Shown piece after piece: positions 6,310-29,018 of a stretch of DNA of 64,000 nt (within the stretch, counting starts at the first letter, position 1; every line of letters begins with the position of its first letter). The position numbers were made by a program, and so were the translations under genes. This stretch comes from an uncultured Planctomycetia bacterium (lineage in GTDB: Bacteria; 4484-113; JAGGVC01). The notes under the pieces were generated by a model. The model made no database searches and was not told where the DNA came from. It was given only the letters and a program-made list of their open reading frames with translations. Location: contig CAYMAI010000001.1 in assembly GCA_964388445.1 (NCBI GenBank), forward strand, positions 336,215 to 400,214. The letters run 5' to 3'.

Positions 6310-6523
6310 GCGGCTGCCGCATATTCGCGCCCTCGTGAGTTTTTCGCTTGAAATCGGACACATACCGGGATATTCTATTCAGGGCTTAGAACGGCCACCG
6401 GGATTTCCTTCGAGGGAGGAGCGAGATGAGAATTGCGGGAATTTTACTGGCGGCAATTTTGCTGCTTTCGCTGTCCGCCTACGCGTCTTCCTGCGGGAAG
6501 GCAGGCGGTGCTACACTTTCCGA

Positions 6524-7756
6524 ATGCCCATTGCGGCGGCGATACTTGTTTTGACCTACGTTCTGATTGCGCTTCAGCGCTTTCTGCGCACGCGGCTCAA
6601 AATGCCCTCCGGCGCGCTTCTCGGCGCGGCGTTGATGGCGGTGTTCGGCGGAATTCCTGCGGATAAAACGCTGTCGCACATACCCGCGGACATTCTGCTT
6701 TTCCTGACGGGGATGCTCGTTATCGCCGTGTATTTGCAGGCGGGGAACGCGGTTTCGTTTTTCGCCGGGAGCGCTCTGCGCCTCGCGAATTCGCCGGTCA
6801 AACTTTTGATTTTTTTCACGCTGACCGGCGCGATTGTTTCCGCATTGGCGCTTAACCTGACTGCGGCGATTCTCCTCGCACCGCTCGCGCTATCGATTTG
6901 CCGCAAGGTGGGCGAAAAACCGGCGCCATATTTAATAGCGCTGATACTGGGCATAAACCTCGGCAGCGCCGCGACGGCGATGGGCAGCCCGCAGACGATG
7001 TTCATCGTGTCGCTTTCCGGCATGGGATTTTGGGAATATTCCTCGAAAATGATGGTCGTTTCGGCCGTGGGGACCGCCGCGGCAATCGCATGGCTGCTCG
7101 CAATTTACGGCAGGCAAATGCGCGGCAGAAGCTTCGCGGGGGAAAAGGACGCGTCGGTAAGTCATGGCCTCGGTTTTACCGGCGCGACGAGCGTCATAGT
7201 CTCTGCGGGCGTGATAATCGCGCTTTTCCTCGGCGCGCCGCTGCCGGTGGCGGCGATGGCCGGCGCCGCGGTTCTAGTAGCGATAAATCCGCAACCGCCG
7301 AAGGACGTGCTGTCCATCGTCAACTGGCCGCTGATTATCTTCATCGGCTCTTTGTTTGTCATCGTCGGCGCGGCGGCCGATGCGGGAATCGCCGGGTGGC
7401 TTGGCGAAAGCGTACTGCCGTTTCTCGCTGCCGAGGCCAAGGCGGGAATGGCGCTGTTCGTGGCGGCTTTGACTGCGCTCACCGCGCTGTTTTCGGGGGT
7501 ACCTGCGGCGGCGCTCGTTTCGCCCGCGCTTGAAGGACTGGATGCGCCAAAGGCCGTCTGGTTCGCTATCGCTGTCGCTACGACGTTCGCGGGGAACGTT
7601 ACGCTGTACGGCTCGCTGTCGAACCTGTCCGTTATCGAACAAACCGCGGCTCACGACGAAGCACGCATAGGCGCGCTGGAATTTTTGCGGGCCGGGCTTC
7701 CCGTAACGTTGATTACGCTCGCAATCGGGCTTGCGATGCTTACTTTAGGCGGATAA
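6524..7756 (+). CDS. Polytopic anion/ion permease (ArsB/NhaD-superfamily-like)
   Basis: About 410 aa, Gly/Ala-rich with 10+ hydrophobic helices; start placed at first ATG giving a TM-first N-terminus (MPIAAAILVLTYVLIAL). Family call tentative. Confidence 0.55.
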   Translation: MPIAAAILVLTYVLIALQRFLRTRLKMPSGALLGAALMAVFGGIPADKTLSHIPADILLFLTGMLVIAVYLQAGNAVSFFAGSALRLANSPVKLLIFFTLTGAIVSALALNLTAAILLAPLALSICRKVGEKPAPYLIALILGINLGSAATAMGSPQTMFIVSLSGMGFWEYSSKMMVVSAVGTAAAIAWLLAIYGRQMRGRSFAGEKDASVSHGLGFTGATSVIVSAGVIIALFLGAPLPVAAMAGAAVLVAINPQPPKDVLSIVNWPLIIFIGSLFVIVGAAADAGIAGWLGESVLPFLAAEAKAGMALFVAALTALTALFSGVPAAALVSPALEGLDAPKAVWFAIAVATTFAGNVTLYGSLSNLSVIEQTAAHDEARIGALEFLRAGLPVTLITLAIGLAMLTLGG

Positions 7757-7771
7757 GAGCGGCGGTCCGGC

Positions 7772-8578
7772 TTACGTGCCCACCGGACGGCCGTCCGCGT
7801 CGAGAAGAGTTACATACTCGAAATCGAAAGCGGATGTTCGCGACGGCTCGCGGTCCGCGCTCGCTGCCTTTTTCTCTTCGAAAATCACGCGGGCTAGAAC
7901 CCCCGTGCCGCTGATTCCGCCTTGACCGCGCTTGCGGGTAATCGAAACCGCTACGACGCCTATCGGAGTTTTGTCCTTTTCGCCGATGAATAGGACGTCA
8001 TTCCCCAAGAAGTCGCCCTTTTCGACGGCTACGCAAGTGTATTTCGACTGCTGAAAATTGATGCGAAACGCCGCTTGAAACAGATTCGTCACGCCGCTTG
8101 CGCTTACGCTGACTACTTTGCGGCCTTGGGAGTCGGTCGTTACGCTCATCGTGGCGGCGGAATTGCCGATGACGATTCGCTTTTGGGCGCTTCTGTCGCC
8201 GATTGCCGCAGATAACGTGAACTCGCCGGGCGACGCTGGCGTGACCCAAAATATTTTGTTTTGCTTCGTTGTCAGGCTGGCCGCGCCCCCTGTTTGAGAA
8301 ATGCCGCGAAGCACCATAGTAAAGTCCGGCTGGGCTTCGTAAAGCGTGCCGCCGCTGGCGGTGTAGAGCTTCAATCTGTCGGATACCGGCGTGCCGGTCG
8401 CGGACGCGTCTATGGTCACTTCGACGAGCGCGGTCGTTCCGGGCGTCGCCGGATTAACGATTAGGTCGCGCACGTTCACGGCGTCGCCGGGCGAGCCGCC
8501 GTCTTTGCCGCCGCCGTTATTGCAGCCGGCAAGTGCGAGCAATAGCGAGAAAACGAGGATTACAACCGATTTAATCAT
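7772..8578 (-). CDS. Secreted lipoprotein, hypothetical (possible cohesin/Ig-like beta domain)
   Basis: Signal peptide plus lipobox (LLLALAGC) followed by Thr/Ser/Gly-rich beta-strand-like sequence. Confidence 0.5.
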   Translation of the reverse strand: MIKSVVILVFSLLLALAGCNNGGGKDGGSPGDAVNVRDLIVNPATPGTTALVEVTIDASATGTPVSDRLKLYTASGGTLYEAQPDFTMVLRGISQTGGAASLTTKQNKIFWVTPASPGEFTLSAAIGDRSAQKRIVIGNSAATMSVTTDSQGRKVVSVSASGVTNLFQAAFRINFQQSKYTCVAVEKGDFLGNDVLFIGEKDKTPIGVVAVSITRKRGQGGISGTGVLARVIFEEKKAASADREPSRTSAFDFEYVTLLDADGRPVGT

Positions 8579-8664
8579 GGCGCATGATTTTACCCCAAAT
8601 TCGCCGAATAAGGCACGCGCGCGAAGCCCGCTTCGTTGACTTTATGCGGGCGCGACTTTAAACT

Positions 8665-9879
8665 ATGCCCGTGCTTCAGGCTTGGCGAAGGTTTAACTAT
8701 GCGTTCTGGTCAACCGCATCCGACCTTGTGGACATCGCGAGGCGCGAAGGTCTGCACCGGTTCGCGCTGATAATAGCCGCGATTCTCGTTTTCTCCGCGC
8801 TGGGCGTTTTTCTTTTCGAATACGGAGCGAAGCCTGGCAGCTTCGGAAATATTTGGGACGCGCTATGGTGGTCGATCGTTACGGCCATGACCGTGGGATA
8901 CGGCGACATGTATCCGGTGACCGCGGGGGGCAGGGCGGTGGCGCTGTTCGAAATTCTGGCGTTCGGGCTTTTTGTAATGCCGCTGTTCGTCGCCACAATC
9001 ACGTCGGTTTACGTCTCTCGGCGCATCAAGGAGGGCAAAGGCTTGGAAGAAGTCAAATTCATCGACCATTTGATTATCTGCGGTTACAATCTGAACTGCG
9101 CCAATATTCTGGAAGGCTTGAGGAAGCTCGGCGATTCCGAGCCGGTGCCGGTAATTCTTGTTGCCGACCTGCCCGAAGACGATTCCTCGGAATTGCTTTA
9201 TCGATATTCCGACTTGAATCTCAAGTACGTTCACGGCGATTTCACATCCGAAAGCGTCCTTAAGCGCGCGAACGCACAGCACGCCAAGTATGCCATCGTG
9301 CTTGCGGAGTACGAGACGGAACAACTTCATAAAAGCGACGAACGGGCGATTCTGGCTACGCTAACGATTAAAAGCCTAAACAAAAGAATCACCGTGTCGG
9401 CGGAAATTTTGGACCCCGCCAACAAAGGGCATATGAAACGCGCCAACGCCGACGAAATAGTCGTGGTCGGCGAAGATTCCGGATTTCTGTTGACCGCGGG
9501 AGTTCTTGCGCCGGGCCTTCCCGAAGTCGTGCGGGAACTGACAAGCTGGGTGTTCGGAAGCGAGCTTTGGCATCGGAAGATACCGCGGGAATTCGAGGGC
9601 AAAACATTTTCGGAACTAATGAATCATTTCCTTCAAACCGACGGCTCGCTTTTAATCGGCCTAATCAGTTTCGAAAAGCCGATTTCGCTCGACGACATTT
9701 TGGGCGAGGACTTTTCGAGCATTGACCATTTCATCAAAATGCAATTCGAAAGGTCGGGCAAGAAAGATCTTGACGGCGGCGAAGACAACGTCGACGTGCA
9801 TATCAATCCCGGAGCGGACTACGCGGTGGGCGAAAACGACGTCGCGGTCGTCATCAACCCGCCGGGAGGGAAAAAATGA
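8665..9879 (+). CDS. 2TM potassium channel with RCK/TrkA-N-type cytoplasmic domain
   Basis: K+ selectivity filter TVGYGD (TAMTVGYGDMYPVT) between two TM helices, then Rossmann-like RCK segment (LIICGYNLNCANILEGL). Confidence 0.8.
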   Translation: MPVLQAWRRFNYAFWSTASDLVDIARREGLHRFALIIAAILVFSALGVFLFEYGAKPGSFGNIWDALWWSIVTAMTVGYGDMYPVTAGGRAVALFEILAFGLFVMPLFVATITSVYVSRRIKEGKGLEEVKFIDHLIICGYNLNCANILEGLRKLGDSEPVPVILVADLPEDDSSELLYRYSDLNLKYVHGDFTSESVLKRANAQHAKYAIVLAEYETEQLHKSDERAILATLTIKSLNKRITVSAEILDPANKGHMKRANADEIVVVGEDSGFLLTAGVLAPGLPEVVRELTSWVFGSELWHRKIPREFEGKTFSELMNHFLQTDGSLLIGLISFEKPISLDDILGEDFSSIDHFIKMQFERSGKKDLDGGEDNVDVHINPGADYAVGENDVAVVINPPGGKK

Positions 9880-10391
9880 GCATAGACTATCCCGACATCC
9901 TCGGTAAAGTGAGCCTGTTCGCCGGGCTTGGCGAAGAGCAGATTGCCGCCGTTGCGGAGCTGTGCCGGGAATTCAAAGCGCTCGCGGGCGAGCGGATAGT
10001 GACGGAGGGCGAGCGCGGCGACGGCGTTTATATCCTCATCGAAGGAAGCGTAGATATTTCCAAGAGGCTGACGCTGCTTTCGCGCGGCGAAAAGGACTTG
10101 CGGGACAAAAAGCTAGTTATTCTGCACGCCGACAAAGAGGCCGGGAAGTTCCCGGTATTCGGAGAAATGGGGCTGTTCTATCCCGACGAGCGAAGCGCGA
10201 CCGTGACCGCGGTTGCGACGTGCATACTTCTCGAAATCCGCAGCGACGAATTCGGCAATATTTGCGAGGCGGACAACCGGCTCGGCTATTTGGTCGCGAA
10301 AAACCTGGTCGAAATAGTCAGCGAGAGGCTGCGCAACGCCAATAGGGACGTACTTAAACTAACGACGGCGCTGTCGCTGGCGCTCGACTAA
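9876..10391 (+). CDS. Cyclic-nucleotide-binding (cNMP/CAP-type) domain protein
   Basis: 171 aa with CAP-effector-domain pattern (GERIVTEGERGDGVYILIEGSVDI ... FGEMGLF ... RSATVTAV); ATGA start/stop overlap with the K+ channel gene. Confidence 0.75.
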   Translation: MSIDYPDILGKVSLFAGLGEEQIAAVAELCREFKALAGERIVTEGERGDGVYILIEGSVDISKRLTLLSRGEKDLRDKKLVILHADKEAGKFPVFGEMGLFYPDERSATVTAVATCILLEIRSDEFGNICEADNRLGYLVAKNLVEIVSERLRNANRDVLKLTTALSLALD

Positions 10392-10400
10392 CGGCCCTTT

Positions 10401-10898
10401 CTAGTCGGAATGCTGGCCGTCTTTGAACAACAAGTCTAGCTGGTCGAGCGGGTGCTGCGAGCTTAAATGGCTGTGAGGATAGTCCGACGGATATTTGACC
10501 ATGTTGCGTTTGCATGGCAAATACTCGATTTTATGCATCGTTTCCGCAAGCAGCTTTTCGTTTTTAATCTGAGTCTCGATGACTTTTTCGTCCCAAACTT
10601 CGCCCGTGCGGCCGATTTCGCGATTTATCAGCCGCTCGCTTGCGCGCCGGATGTACCGGACTACCGTGTCCGCCGTGTTGTTGCCCTTGGGCGAAAAGAC
10701 GACGTGCACTTCGTCAGGCAAAACAACGTAACCGCCGAGAAGGCACTGGTTCAGCTCGCGAGTGTTCGCGATAAAGCTAACGACGATAGCGGCGATTCCC
10801 CCGTCCGCTAGCTGCTGCGCTCGCCTGACCGTATTCCAACTGACGGCAAAGATTTTCCCATGCTTGTGTTCCCCAGGCATTACCGCAATATTATACAC
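10401..10898 (-). CDS. IS200/IS605-family HuH tyrosine transposase-like protein (RayT/TnpA-REP-like)
   Basis: 165 aa; HuH-like motif LPDEVHVVF, downstream RYIRRASERLINREIG...GEVWDEKV and C-terminal Y-containing segment resemble Y1 transposases; single gene, no obvious IS ends or partner tnpB. Confidence 0.55.
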   Translation of the reverse strand: MYNIAVMPGEHKHGKIFAVSWNTVRRAQQLADGGIAAIVVSFIANTRELNQCLLGGYVVLPDEVHVVFSPKGNNTADTVVRYIRRASERLINREIGRTGEVWDEKVIETQIKNEKLLAETMHKIEYLPCKRNMVKYPSDYPHSHLSSQHPLDQLDLLFKDGQHSD

Positions 10899-26864: not shown

Positions 26865-29018
26865 TTATTCCCGCGCCTCTGAGTTGATTTTTCCGTTTCC
26901 AAATTTCGCCGCCAATTTCAAATATGCCGCGTATACAACGTAAAGGAGGCTGCCGTTTATCATCCCGATTGCCGCGCCGAGAAGCGTGCGGGTAAGGCTG
27001 ATTCCAATCGGCGTATGCAAATGGCAGAACGTGTTGACGATGCTCGTGAACGCCACCGCGCCGATGAGAAGAAGCACGATGGAGGGTTGTTTGCGCCTGA
27101 AAAAGTACGCGAGGAAAAAGAAAAACGCCGGAAGCCCGAACAGCTCTTTCGTTCGCGGCCTGACTGCAAGCAGGTCTTCGAGCCGCTCGCGGAACAAAAG
27201 CTCCAATTGCGCGACCCCGATCGGCGCTTCGTTTCCGCTGCGAAGAAGTATCAGCGCGAGCGCGGCGATGCCGAGAAACACGACCATCATATCCACGAAT
27301 TTTATGTCGAGGTCGAGGAGCGAATTCAGCCGTTCAATCCAGCCCGGAAGTTTTTTCGCATTTCCGTTTTCGCCGCCGCCGGAAACCTCGCCCTTAAACT
27401 TGAGCGATGCAAGATTCCAAAAATACACCGCGATTAAAAGAACGGGCAGCGCGAGAGATAGCATAACGCCTTTGAAGGTTTCCACTTTTACGAACGCGTC
27501 CGCCGAGTTTATCAGCGCGTACACGAAAATTCCGCCCAGCGCGCTTGCGGCGATTGCGATTAGATATGCCGAAAGCACGCGGCCGTAGTTCGCCGGAACT
27601 TGTTCCTTGCCGCGAAGCAGCAGCGCGATGGCGAGCGCGGCGCCCGCGACCGGCGCGAGAATCGCGGCGACAAGCGCCCAGCCGGAATATAGCAGGGCGG
27701 GCGATTTGATAAACAGCGCGGCGCTTCCCGCGATGGAAAGAGCCCAGAAAGCCGGCTCCATCCACATCGGCGCCGCGAAAAACAGCCGGATCATCAATGC
27801 TGCGAGCGAGATGACGCCGAGCGCGGCGAGAAGTTTCAGCGGATGCAGGTCTTGAAAATCCGGCGGCGACGGTTCGCGCGCGACGTTGAAGCCGTGGCGG
27901 TTTATCGCATCGAAAAGCGAGCCGTAATATTCGAGGTTGAATTCGAGAGCGCTCTCGGATTTTGCGCCGCGCCCTTCGTCCACGAAAAGCCCGGTGAAAA
28001 ACGGACGGACGTATACCAGCCTGACGTTTCTTTCCTTCAGCGCTCGAACGAACCGCGACTGCGCGACGGATGGCTTTTGTTTGACCATTTCTTCCGCGCT
28101 GATGCTGTGCGTTATTACGACGTCCGGCGAAAGCATCGACGCGAGCGCGCCGGCGCCGTCCTGAATTTCGAATTCTATCCAGCCCCAATACCAGCCGTAT
28201 TTTTCGATTTCCGCTGCGGTTGCGGCGACGTTGTTCGGATAACCGAGAACCGCGTCGCCCTCGAAAATGACGGTGCGCACGTCCGCGGGCGCGGCCGGCG
28301 AAATCGTAAGCTCGCTCACCTTTTGCAAATCGGCGAAGACCGCGGCAAGGTCGTTTGCGTCGTACTTCGGATTATTCGTCACTCGCGCGACGACGTCGAA
28401 GCCCGCCGCTCGTACCCGACGCCATTCGCCCTTGTCGAAACCGAGATTTATTTTATTCAGGTCAACTTCGGCTTCGCGCGGAATGCTGATTAGAAACCAG
28501 CCGCCCGCGGCAGCCCCCGCATCCGGCGATGGCAGCCGTTCGAGCGCGACCGGAACCGAAATGAAATTTTCGCCGTATAGCAGCTTCAGCCTTTCGCGCG
28601 CAGCCTCCTCGCGCTCTTCGCCGAAAATGCAGAAATTGCGGCGCGCCAAAACCGAATCGAGAATATCCGCCAGGCGCGGATTATCCTCCGCCCACTTTAA
28701 AATCAAGTCGTCGCCGGCTTCGAATAGGTAACCCTTTTCATGCGCTGCGAGAAAAGTGAGTTCGCTGACCGCCATGCTGGAAAAGCCGGTCGAGCGAAGC
28801 CTTGCGAGCACGCTTTCTATCGATTGGCCGCTAACCTGCGCAAGCTGGAAAGCCGCGTTGTAATCGAGACAAACGACGGCGTCGCGATAGCGCCGGTCCC
28901 AATCGGCGCGCTGTACGAGCAGCAGAATCGCCGAAATCGTTCCGAGCGCGATCAAAAACAGCGGGATGAAAACGCTTGCGGGTACGCCGATTATTCGCAA
29001 AGGAGTTTTACCTGCCAT
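26865..29018 (-). CDS. Large membrane protein: N-terminal extracytoplasmic domain plus C-terminal polytopic domain
   Basis: 717 aa; single N-terminal TM, ~300 aa soluble region, then 8+ hydrophobic helices; no catalytic motif recognised. Confidence 0.55.
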   Translation of the reverse strand: MAGKTPLRIIGVPASVFIPLFLIALGTISAILLLVQRADWDRRYRDAVVCLDYNAAFQLAQVSGQSIESVLARLRSTGFSSMAVSELTFLAAHEKGYLFEAGDDLILKWAEDNPRLADILDSVLARRNFCIFGEEREEAARERLKLLYGENFISVPVALERLPSPDAGAAAGGWFLISIPREAEVDLNKINLGFDKGEWRRVRAAGFDVVARVTNNPKYDANDLAAVFADLQKVSELTISPAAPADVRTVIFEGDAVLGYPNNVAATAAEIEKYGWYWGWIEFEIQDGAGALASMLSPDVVITHSISAEEMVKQKPSVAQSRFVRALKERNVRLVYVRPFFTGLFVDEGRGAKSESALEFNLEYYGSLFDAINRHGFNVAREPSPPDFQDLHPLKLLAALGVISLAALMIRLFFAAPMWMEPAFWALSIAGSAALFIKSPALLYSGWALVAAILAPVAGAALAIALLLRGKEQVPANYGRVLSAYLIAIAASALGGIFVYALINSADAFVKVETFKGVMLSLALPVLLIAVYFWNLASLKFKGEVSGGGENGNAKKLPGWIERLNSLLDLDIKFVDMMVVFLGIAALALILLRSGNEAPIGVAQLELLFRERLEDLLAVRPRTKELFGLPAFFFFLAYFFRRKQPSIVLLLIGAVAFTSIVNTFCHLHTPIGISLTRTLLGAAIGMINGSLLYVVYAAYLKLAAKFGNGKINSEARE

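What the first reader, a model, noticed from the sequence alone, without database searches (positions are those of the whole stretch)
8665..10391. Split cyclic-nucleotide-gated-like K+ channel: 2TM channel with RCK domain translationally coupled to a separate cNMP-binding protein
The channel gene (TVGYGD filter plus RCK domain) ends in an ATGA overlap with a stand-alone CAP-type cNMP-binding protein. In characterised prokaryotic cyclic-nucleotide-regulated K+ channels the cNMP domain is normally fused to the pore. A two-polypeptide arrangement combining RCK and cNMP sensing is unusual and would make a dual-input channel.
Basis: partly seen in the sequence, partly recalled or inferred. Interest (0 to 1): 0.5.

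Follow-up and report, generated by a model that had tools for sequence, protein, structure and literature searches.

The report
K+ channel with separate cAMP-sensor subunit
A potassium channel gene and a small cyclic-nucleotide-binding protein gene sit together as a two-gene unit that is kept, never fused, in bacteria of at least ten phyla, which suggests an undescribed kind of bacterial ion channel whose chemical sensor is a detachable subunit.

Summary
Window 8665-9879(+) encodes a 404-aa MthK-type channel: two transmembrane helices, a TVGYGD filter and one RCK domain. Its TGA stop overlaps (ATGA, 9876-9879) the start of a 171-aa protein (9876-10391) that is only a CRP-like cyclic-nucleotide-binding domain (CNBD) plus a long C-terminal helix, with no HTH.

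The pairing is not unique to this genome:
- All 12 full-length family channels found in GTDB genomes, and one more looked up separately, have the CNBD gene directly downstream. None of 66 other K+ channels do.
- 72 of 75 assessable CNBD-family loci from metagenomes have the channel directly upstream.
- Gaps run from -4 to +85 nt, the gene order never changes, and no fusion was found.

Two family-specific features travel with the pairing. One is a ~39-residue insertion in the peripheral lobe of the RCK domain, absent from MthK and from unpartnered RCK channels. The other is a nearly invariant, all-round hydrophobic CNBD C-terminus (KLTTALSLAL), which is the best-conserved segment of either protein. 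The cNMP phosphate-binding cassette is retained.

Best reading: the CNBD protein is a dedicated soluble cAMP/cGMP-sensing subunit of the channel. Physical binding, the ligand and a second input through RCK are inferred, not shown. I found no description in the literature searched. I rate it a new variant of a known kind.

The parts
8665..9879 (+). Gene for a 404-aa MthK-type K+ channel with two transmembrane helices and one RCK domain (stop codon included).
   Evidence: ORF. Pfam Ion_trans_2, TrkA_N and Slo-like_RCK. MthK is the best PDB relative. AF2 pLDDT 87.7.
8752..9018 (+). Pore module: TM1 (residues 30-52), pore helix (63-74), TVGYGD filter (76-81, at 8890-8907) and TM2 (87 to about 118).
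   Evidence: AF2 secondary structure. The filter is invariant in 59 homologues.
9022..9048 (+). Conserved TM2-RCK linker RIKEGKGLE (residues 120-128). It has no conserved internal Met of the MthK type.
   Evidence: E123, G126 and L127 are invariant or nearly so. Met frequency is at most 0.10 at linker positions 119-136 and at most 0.19 anywhere in 105-136, in 52 non-redundant channels.
9058..9465 (+). RCK N-lobe, a Rossmann-like fold (residues 132-267).
   Evidence: Pfam TrkA_N and Slo-like_RCK. The AF2 model shows alternating strands and helices.
9682..9798 (+). Family-specific insertion of about 39 residues in the RCK C-terminal (peripheral) lobe (residues 340-378). Motif S-x-I-D-x-F-I-K-x-x-F, with D354 and I357 invariant and F356 nearly invariant. 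Proposed docking site for the partner protein.
   Evidence: Present in all partnered channels aligned, and absent from MthK and 9 unpartnered 2TM-RCK channels. Low pLDDT (53-69) in the monomer model. Invariant columns.
9864..9870 (+). Shine-Dalgarno sequence GGGAGGG for the second gene, lying inside the end of the channel gene.
   Evidence: Sequence read. It lies 5 nt before the ATG at 9876.
9876..9879 (+). ATGA overlap of the start and stop codons.
   Evidence: The same 4-nt overlap occurs in 19 of 67 homologous pairs.
9876..10391 (+). Gene for a 171-aa stand-alone, CRP-like cyclic-nucleotide-binding protein (stop codon included).
   Evidence: Pfam cNMP_binding only. AF2 pLDDT 88.3. The best Foldseek matches are the sensor domain plus dimer helix of M. 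tuberculosis CRP, GlxR and T. thermophilus CAP.
10158..10205 (+). Phosphate-binding cassette FGEMGLFYPDERSATV (residues 95-110).
   Evidence: G96, R106 and A108 are invariant, and F95, E97 and M98 nearly invariant, in 74 homologues. The motif G-[ED]...R-[ST]-A is kept in 64 of 67 pairs, and the Arg in all 67.
10347..10385 (+). Nearly invariant hydrophobic C-terminal tail DVLKLTTALSLAL (residues 158-170) at the end of the C-helix. Proposed output and docking element.
   Evidence: It is the lowest-entropy 8-mer of either protein (0.28 bits, against 0.66 for the selectivity filter). L162, T163 and A165 are invariant in 74 homologues. It is also conserved in loci that were chosen without using the motif. 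Hydrophobic moment 0.23, mean hydrophobicity 0.43.

Best explanation
A conserved two-gene operon encodes a K+ channel and its dedicated soluble ligand sensor. The channel is a tetrameric, K+-selective, MthK-type pore with one cytoplasmic RCK domain per subunit. The second protein is a CRP-like cyclic-nucleotide-binding domain that binds cAMP (or cGMP) in a canonical phosphate-binding cassette. Its long C-helix ends in a nearly invariant hydrophobic tail. As in other CNBD proteins, the position of the C-helix should depend on whether ligand is bound. I propose that the tail docks on the channel. The most likely site is the family-specific 39-residue insertion in the peripheral lobe of the RCK domain. 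Nucleotide binding would then change the conformation of the RCK assembly and so the pore gate. Shown here: the domain identities, the strict and ancient gene linkage, the absence of fusions, the co-occurrence of the insertion and the tail with the pairing, and the retention of the cNMP pocket. Inferred: physical binding, the docking site, the identity of the ligand and the direction of regulation. The confidence of 0.7 applies to the CNBD protein being a dedicated regulatory subunit of the channel; the specific tail-to-insertion docking model deserves about 0.35.
For: Linkage starting from the channel: 12 of 12 full-length family members in GTDB genomes carry the CNBD gene immediately downstream on the same strand, against 0 of 66 other K+ channels (Fisher p = 2e-14). 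One further channel looked up separately (P0138) shows the same arrangement.

Linkage starting from the CNBD: six homologues looked up, at 43-75% identity, all have the channel directly upstream, with flanks that differ outside the window's own lineage. In the metagenome scan, 72 of 75 assessable loci are paired.

Operon structure: gaps run from -4 to +85 nt, 56 of 67 are at most 14 nt, and the order is always channel then CNBD. No other neighbouring gene is conserved.

No fusion turned up among the top channel homologues, a chimeric-query search or a 1.84-billion-protein profile search.

The RCK insertion is present only in partnered channels. The tail is the most conserved segment and is hydrophobic on all sides. 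The phosphate-binding cassette is conserved. The two proteins diverge together (distance correlation r = 0.92).

Against: There is no direct evidence of binding. Inter-protein covariation on 52 pairs was scattered and underpowered. Three CNBD loci from one lineage keep the tail but have no channel within 3 kb, so adjacency is not obligatory. The tail could serve homo-oligomerisation instead. No nucleotide cyclase was seen next to any locus or among the 15 window ORFs scanned against Pfam. The high distance correlation is expected for any co-inherited gene pair.
Confidence: 0.7

Rival explanations
1. The two genes are co-expressed but do not bind each other. The CNBD protein is a free cAMP receptor or buffer that acts on another target, and it shares an operon with the channel only so that both are produced together.
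For: Some operon partners do not interact. Three orphan CNBD loci exist without an adjacent channel. No interface could be computed.
Against: Linkage with fixed order is kept across many phyla while all other neighbours change. A channel-specific insertion and a nearly invariant partner tail co-occur with the pairing. The 171-aa protein has no other output domain.
Confidence: 0.14
2. The CNBD protein is mainly a structural subunit. It would complete or cap the cytoplasmic RCK assembly, taking the place of the soluble RCK that MthK makes from an internal start codon. Its pocket would bind something other than cAMP or cGMP, or nothing.
For: There is no conserved internal Met in the TM2-RCK linker and no separate RCK gene nearby. 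The tail is conserved more strongly than the binding pocket. Domains of the CRP/FNR family can bind other ligands (general knowledge).
Against: The residues that contact the ribose and phosphate (G96, E97, R106, S/T107, A108) are invariant or nearly invariant across the family. That argues for selection on cNMP binding. Internal starts at GTG or TTG cannot be excluded.
Confidence: 0.1
3. The pair is an anti-phage effector of the Pycsar or CBASS type: a membrane pore opened by a cyclic-nucleotide alarm signal.
For: PADLOC models of PycTIR and Pycsar effectors match the CNBD domain (E 2e-11).
Against: Those matches cover only the generic CNBD domain, and the channel has no PADLOC hit. No cyclase or any other defence gene is conserved next to the pair. 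The filter is a canonical K+-selective TVGYGD rather than a lytic pore. The two proteins diverge together across phyla (distance correlation r = 0.92), consistent with co-inheritance of the pair as a unit rather than independent acquisition of each gene.
Confidence: 0.03
4. The split is an artefact: a fused channel-CNBD gene broken by a frameshift or a sequencing error.
For: None beyond the 4-nt overlap in this window.
Against: The same split is seen in more than 80 independent loci with varied spacing (-4 to +85 nt) and with their own start codons, and here with a Shine-Dalgarno sequence. No fused homologue was found.
Confidence: 0.01

Closest known systems
MthK (Methanothermobacter Ca2+-gated 2TM-RCK K+ channel)
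   Same: The architecture is the same: a 2TM pore with a TVGYGD-type filter, then a linker, then one RCK domain per subunit. MthK is the best solved relative by both sequence and fold.
   Different: Identity is only about 21%. The new family has a 39-residue insertion in the peripheral RCK lobe. It lacks a conserved internal Met for a soluble RCK. In the HMMER alignment MthK D184 aligns to Leu, so Ca2+ site 1 does not look conserved. It also carries an obligatory CNBD partner gene.
MloK1 / SthK / LliK (prokaryotic cyclic-nucleotide-modulated K+ channels)
   Same: A K+ pore is associated with a CNBD that has a canonical phosphate-binding cassette. The CNBDs of MloK1 and SthK are detectable relatives (E 4e-9 to 1e-5).
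   Different: In those channels the pore is 6TM and the CNBD is covalently fused through a C-linker, with no RCK. Here the pore is 2TM plus RCK, and the CNBD is a separate polypeptide that was never found fused. L067 shows the fused type for contrast.
KefC-KefF and KefB-KefG (glutathione-gated K+ efflux with an ancillary subunit)
   Same: A soluble subunit of about 20 kDa is encoded in the same operon, often with overlapping genes, and acts on a KTN/RCK domain (PMC10224563).
   Different: The Kef membrane part is a CPA2 antiporter, not a channel. KefF is a flavodoxin-like quinone oxidoreductase and is encoded upstream. Here the partner is a CNBD and is encoded downstream.
CRP/FNR transcription factors (M. 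tuberculosis CRP, GlxR, T. thermophilus CAP)
   Same: These are the best structural matches for the 171-aa protein: a CNBD plus a long C-helix, with a CAP-like GE(L/M)GLF...ERSA cassette.
   Different: The window protein has no winged-HTH DNA-binding domain. It ends in the KLTTALSLAL tail instead.
bCNG channels (MscS-like channels fused to a CNBD)
   Same: They are bacterial channels that combine a non-CNG pore type with a CNBD (P0268-P0270).
   Different: They are fused rather than split, and the pore is MscS-type, not a K+-selective P-loop.

Membership tests
MthK-type 2TM-RCK K+ channel | A two-transmembrane P-loop pore with a K+ signature filter (TVGYGD). | tested here: met
   T76-D81 in the sequence. 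Pfam Ion_trans_2. The filter is invariant in homologues.
MthK-type 2TM-RCK K+ channel | A C-terminal RCK domain, made of a Rossmann-like N-lobe and a peripheral C-lobe. | tested here: met
   Pfam TrkA_N and Slo-like_RCK. The AF2 model and the full-length Foldseek match to MthK, E 4e-20.
MthK-type 2TM-RCK K+ channel | A soluble RCK made from a conserved internal Met, needed to build the octameric gating ring. | tested here: not met
   Met frequency is at most 0.10 at linker positions 119-136 in 52 non-redundant members. Non-ATG internal starts were not excluded.
MthK-type 2TM-RCK K+ channel | Ca2+-site residues D184, E210 and E212. | tested here: inconclusive
   In the HMMER alignment D184 aligns to Leu, and E210/E212 align to I/D with a possible one-residue register shift. 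No structure-based check was made.
CNBD-fused prokaryotic cNMP-modulated K+ channels (MloK1/SthK) | A 6TM core with the CNBD covalently linked through a C-linker. | tested here: not met
   The channel has only 2TM. The CNBD is a separate ORF. No fusions were found.
CNBD-fused prokaryotic cNMP-modulated K+ channels (MloK1/SthK) | A CNBD with a functional phosphate-binding cassette (Gly, Glu, Arg, Ser/Thr, Ala). | tested here: met
   FGEMGLFYPDERSATV in the window. These residues are invariant or nearly so in 74 homologues and across 67 pairs. Actual ligand binding was not tested.
CRP/FNR transcription regulators | An N-terminal CNBD followed by a long dimerisation helix. | tested here: met
   The AF2 model. 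The top Foldseek hits are M. tuberculosis CRP, GlxR and T. thermophilus CAP.
CRP/FNR transcription regulators | A C-terminal winged-HTH DNA-binding domain. | tested here: not met
   No HTH family in Pfam. The NCBIfam CRP match stops at profile position 140 of 214. The protein ends at residue 171 within a single helix.
Kef-type RCK system with an ancillary subunit (KefFC/KefGB) | A soluble ancillary subunit encoded in the same operon, often overlapping, that acts on the RCK/KTN domain. | tested here: inconclusive
   The operon arrangement is met. Action on the RCK domain is inferred only. The description of Kef is from PMC10224563.
Kef-type RCK system with an ancillary subunit (KefFC/KefGB) | A CPA2 antiporter membrane domain and a flavodoxin-like oxidoreductase subunit. 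| tested here: not met
   Pfam shows an ion channel and cNMP_binding instead.
Pycsar/CBASS-type cNMP-activated defence effector | A linked nucleotide cyclase and a defence-island context. | tested here: not met
   No conserved neighbour in 66 loci. PADLOC hits are limited to the generic CNBD domain, and the channel has none.

The most novel reading that the evidence does not exclude
The CNBD protein is an integral part of a hybrid gating apparatus. CNBD dimers or tetramers would plug their invariant hydrophobic tails into the RCK peripheral-lobe insertions. The result would be a mixed RCK-CNBD ring that replaces the soluble-RCK half of the MthK ring. This would be a new channel architecture in which the sensors of two otherwise separate channel superfamilies (RCK/Slo and CNBD/CNG-HCN) act on one pore through non-covalent assembly.
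Probability: 0.25. Interest if true: 0.8.

Novelty: new variant of a known kind. Interest (0 to 1): 0.62.

Why it matters
All characterised cyclic-nucleotide-regulated K+ channels, in bacteria and in animals, carry the sensor fused to a 6TM pore. RCK channels are known to sense ions or nucleotides through the RCK domain itself. A widespread family in which a 2TM-RCK pore is tied to a detachable CNBD subunit would add a third design.

It would link cAMP or cGMP signalling to membrane potential and K+ homeostasis in many little-studied anaerobic and marine phyla, including Marinimicrobia, Cloacimonadota, Desulfobacterota, Chloroflexi and Latescibacteria.

It would also give a simple two-protein system for studying how a CNBD C-helix movement is passed to a gate across a non-covalent interface. 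Neither protein has a curated family model: the NCBIfam hits are far below their cut-offs. Neither has a solved close relative.

Tried and rejected
1. Complex prediction. I concatenated 19 channel-linker-CNBD pairs (alignment A4).
2. Search for natural fusions. I checked the top 120 channel homologues, ran a chimeric query of the RCK C-lobe plus the CNBD, and ran a profile search of 1.84 billion representatives. In the last search the long hits are multi-CNBD proteins with 3-20 matched stretches, not channel fusions. No fusion was found. Sensitivity is limited by the word index and by the top-150 list.
3. Inter-protein covariation (MI with APC correction, 52 non-redundant pairs). The top pairs were scattered, for example channel E247/G269/E270 with CNBD T109/R153. 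Enrichment for the insertion was weak (14 against 9.3 expected). The analysis is underpowered and confounded by phylogeny, so I did not use it.
4. Search for a third conserved gene such as a cyclase or phosphodiesterase, by clustering flanking ORFs from 66 loci. Only lineage-specific synteny appeared.
5. Defence-system reading (PADLOC). Rejected.
6. Frameshift artefact. Rejected on the comparative data.
7. Six literature searches found no description of this pair. The library holds open-access papers only, so an earlier description elsewhere cannot be excluded.
8. The first alignment (A1) was too divergent for the genome scan. The afdb50 fold library was unavailable. The Chloroherpeton thalassium homologue (P0043) could not be placed on a contig.
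9. Promoter and terminator scans were at chance level.
Full report
**Observation**

The window holds two same-strand ORFs, 8665..9879 (404 aa) and 9876..10391 (171 aa). The sequence at 9870-9879 reads gaaaaaATGA. The first gene's TGA stop therefore overlaps the second gene's ATG, and a GGGAGGG Shine-Dalgarno lies 5 nt upstream of that ATG.

The first protein has the filter T76-V-G-Y-G-D81. Pfam finds Ion_trans_2 (residues 37-116), TrkA_N (137-267) and Slo-like_RCK. Its best solved relative is MthK, both by sequence (E 2e-15) and by fold (Foldseek E 4e-20 over the full length). The AF2 model (pLDDT 87.7) shows an N-terminal helix, TM1, a pore helix, TM2 and a two-lobed RCK domain.

The second protein matches only Pfam cNMP_binding. 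NCBIfam CRP aligns to profile positions 15-140 of 214 only. The AF2 model (pLDDT 88.3) is a beta-roll with a long hairpin, followed by one 37-residue C-terminal helix (134-170), with no HTH. Its best structural matches are the sensor and dimer-helix parts of M. tuberculosis CRP, GlxR and T. thermophilus CAP.

**Is the pairing conserved?**

Starting from the CNBD protein, homologues at 75, 62, 61, 53, 47 and 43% identity all have a 367-402-aa channel of the same family directly upstream. The three closest homologues keep the window's upstream synteny (CitMHS and a cohesin-like gene) but differ downstream. The three more distant ones have unrelated flanks on both sides.

Starting from the channel, a scan of one genome per GTDB species returned 80 K+ channel loci. 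I built HMMs of both families and scanned all six frames of each locus. All 12 loci whose channel matches the family model over its full length carry the roughly 170-aa CNBD gene immediately downstream on the same strand. These loci are from Syntrophales, a Pseudomonadota MAG, Marinimicrobia/Neomarinimicrobiota, Desulfarculia, Cloacimonadota and Desulfomicrobiaceae. None of the 66 other RCK-type, 2TM or 6TM K+ channels carries it. One further locus (L067) is a classical fused 6TM-CNBD channel. Fisher p is 2e-14, not corrected for phylogeny. One more channel, looked up separately on a 4.6-Mb contig, is also followed by the CNBD gene.

In the reverse direction, a metagenome scan seeded by the CNBD family gave 80 loci. 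Of these, 72 have the channel upstream and 5 have less than 135 nt of upstream sequence. The remaining 3 (L108, L113, L127) come from one lineage and lie between a GT4 glycosyltransferase gene and a hemerythrin gene, with no channel within about 3 kb.

In 67 complete pairs the spacing is -4 to +85 nt. It is at most 14 nt in 56 of them, and 19 share the 4-nt overlap. The order is always channel then CNBD (start codons were chosen heuristically). Clustering the flanking ORFs of 66 loci revealed no third conserved gene. Source annotations of homologues add Chloroflexi, Latescibacteria, Chlorobi (Chloroherpeton), Bacteroidota, KSB1, Armatimonadota, Planctomycetales and Spirochaetota.

**Never fused**

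No protein combining both halves appeared among the top 120 channel homologues. None appeared in a search with a chimeric query of the RCK C-lobe plus the CNBD. None appeared among the best 150 hits of a profile search of 1.84 billion representatives, where all the long hits are multi-CNBD proteins. Within the limits of these searches, the split is the native and stable state.

**Family-specific features that travel with the pairing**

- The RCK insertion. An alignment of partnered channels with MthK and nine unpartnered 2TM-RCK channels shows an insertion of about 39 residues in the C-terminal (peripheral) RCK lobe (window residues 340-378). Every partnered channel has it and all the others lack it. 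It carries the invariant D354 and I357 and the nearly invariant F356. It is the lowest-confidence part of the monomer model.
- The CNBD tail. The C-terminus of the CNBD protein, D-V-L-K-L-T-T-A-L-S-L-A-L, is the most conserved segment of either protein. Its entropy is 0.28 bits, against 0.66 for the selectivity filter. L162, T163 and A165 are invariant in 74 homologues that were collected by overall similarity. The motif also holds in loci that were selected through the channel rather than through the motif. The tail is hydrophobic on all sides of the helix (moment 0.23, mean 0.43). It should therefore be buried in an interface or a helical bundle.
- The phosphate-binding cassette. It reads F-G-E-M-G-L-F-Y-P-D-E-R-S-A-T-V and is CAP-like. 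G96, R106 and A108 are invariant and E97 is nearly so. The Arg is present in all 67 pairs. The pocket is therefore under selection.
- No soluble RCK. The TM2-RCK linker has no conserved internal Met, and no separate RCK gene lies nearby. The MthK route to a soluble RCK is not evident.

**Most likely mechanism**

Shown: a K+-selective MthK-type pore with one RCK domain, a CNBD-only protein with an intact cNMP pocket, and strict, ancient, unfused operon linkage.

Inferred: the CNBD protein is a dedicated soluble sensor subunit. It binds cAMP (or cGMP), its C-helix moves as in other CNBDs, and the buried hydrophobic tail at the end of that helix couples it to the channel. The RCK peripheral-lobe insertion is the best candidate receptor, because it is the only channel feature that is exclusive to partnered members. 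In MthK that lobe lies on the outside of the gating ring (my knowledge of the MthK structures, not tested here).

Whether the nucleotide opens or closes the channel is unknown. Whether the RCK domain binds a ligand of its own is also unknown. In the HMMER alignment MthK Ca2+-site residue D184 aligns to Leu, and there is no GxGxxG motif. 'Dual input' is therefore possible but unsupported.

The closest functional precedent is KefF/KefG, soluble subunits encoded in overlapping operon genes that bind the KTN/RCK domain of KefC/KefB (PMC10224563).

**Rival explanations**

- Co-expression without binding remains possible. It does not explain the co-occurring insertion and tail, or the lack of any other output domain.
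- A mainly structural role, with a non-cNMP ligand or none, is weakened by the conserved cassette.
- A Pycsar-like defence role is unlikely. There is no linked cyclase, the PADLOC hits cover only the generic CNBD, and the filter is a canonical K+ filter.
- A frameshift artefact is excluded by more than 80 independent split loci.

**Comparison with known systems and novelty**

The channel belongs to the MthK-type 2TM-RCK class. It fails the internal-Met test, and the Ca2+-site test is inconclusive. The partner is a CRP-like CNBD that fails the defining HTH test of CRP/FNR regulators.

The system probably works like a cyclic-nucleotide-regulated K+ channel, but it is not a member of the MloK1/SthK family, which has a 6TM pore and a fused CNBD. 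It resembles Kef in using an ancillary subunit, but neither protein is homologous to a Kef component.

NCBIfam has no model that either protein passes. No close relative has a solved structure. Six full-text searches found no description of the pair, although only open-access papers were searched.

I rate it a new variant of a known kind and of moderately high interest. The genomic signal is very strong, but the biochemistry is wholly untested.

**Limits**

The metagenome set was seeded by the tail motif, so tail conservation in that set is biased; the genome set and the similarity-based sets are not. The counts include closely related loci, and 52 pairs remain at 90% non-redundancy. The source organism is an unclassified 'bacterium' MAG. 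No cyclase was found among the 15 window ORFs scanned against Pfam.

Noticed in passing
window 10401..10898 (-): A 165-aa ORF convergent with the CNBD gene resembles a REP-associated tyrosine transposase (RAYT / IS200-like Y1). NCBIfam scores it 66.9 bits, below the cut-off of 80, and Pfam Y1_Tnp is weak. This position holds different genes in the close relatives L003 and L006-L007, so the right-hand boundary of the operon is a variable spot.
   Followed up: partly
P0168 (517 aa; alignment A1): One member of the same channel family carries two complete pore domains in tandem, each with TVGYGD and with two Ion_trans_2 stretches, ahead of the single RCK domain. This is a bacterial tandem-pore (K2P-like) variant. 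It would form a dimer carrying only two RCK domains.
   Followed up: partly
L163-L167, channel ORF 1227..2954 in L163: The stop-to-stop ORF is 576 aa, with an extra weak hit of the family HMM to the pore region (positions 69-107). Pfam finds only one pore. This may be a degenerate N-terminal extension or a second pore.
   Followed up: partly
L171 4620-5819; L173 5770-7905: In some genomes the pair is followed by a Metallophos phosphoesterase gene and an MscS-like channel gene (L171), or by a GAF-sigma54 activator gene (L173). These are possible lineage-specific additions, such as a phosphodiesterase or an osmotic-response link. They are not conserved across the family.
   Followed up: no
L108 2741-3262, L113 2968-3492, L127 842-1381: One lineage keeps the CNBD protein with its KLTTAL tail but has no adjacent channel. 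The gene lies between a GT4 glycosyltransferase gene and a hemerythrin gene. Whether the channel is encoded elsewhere in those genomes is unknown.
   Followed up: partly
window 8636-8664 (+): A promoter-like TTGACT-17-TAAACT ends one base before the annotated ATG at 8665. That would imply a leaderless mRNA or a start a few codons downstream; relatives start at the GTG two codons later. The number of such sites in the region is at chance level (2 found, 1.3 expected).
   Followed up: partly
window 6335-8578 and 26865-29018: The upstream genes, a CitMHS/ArsB-like transporter and a divergently oriented lipoprotein with a weak cohesin-like domain, are syntenic with the pair only in the closest relatives (L001, L003, L006). 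In those relatives DUF5693 lies directly upstream of CitMHS. In this window it is about 20 kb away, which indicates a local rearrangement.
   Followed up: no
channel residues 120-128 (window 9022-9048): The TM2-RCK linker motif (R/K)IKEGKGLE is unusually conserved for a linker: E123, G126 and L127 are invariant or nearly so. It is among the most conserved 8-mers of the channel, and no function is assigned to it.
   Followed up: no
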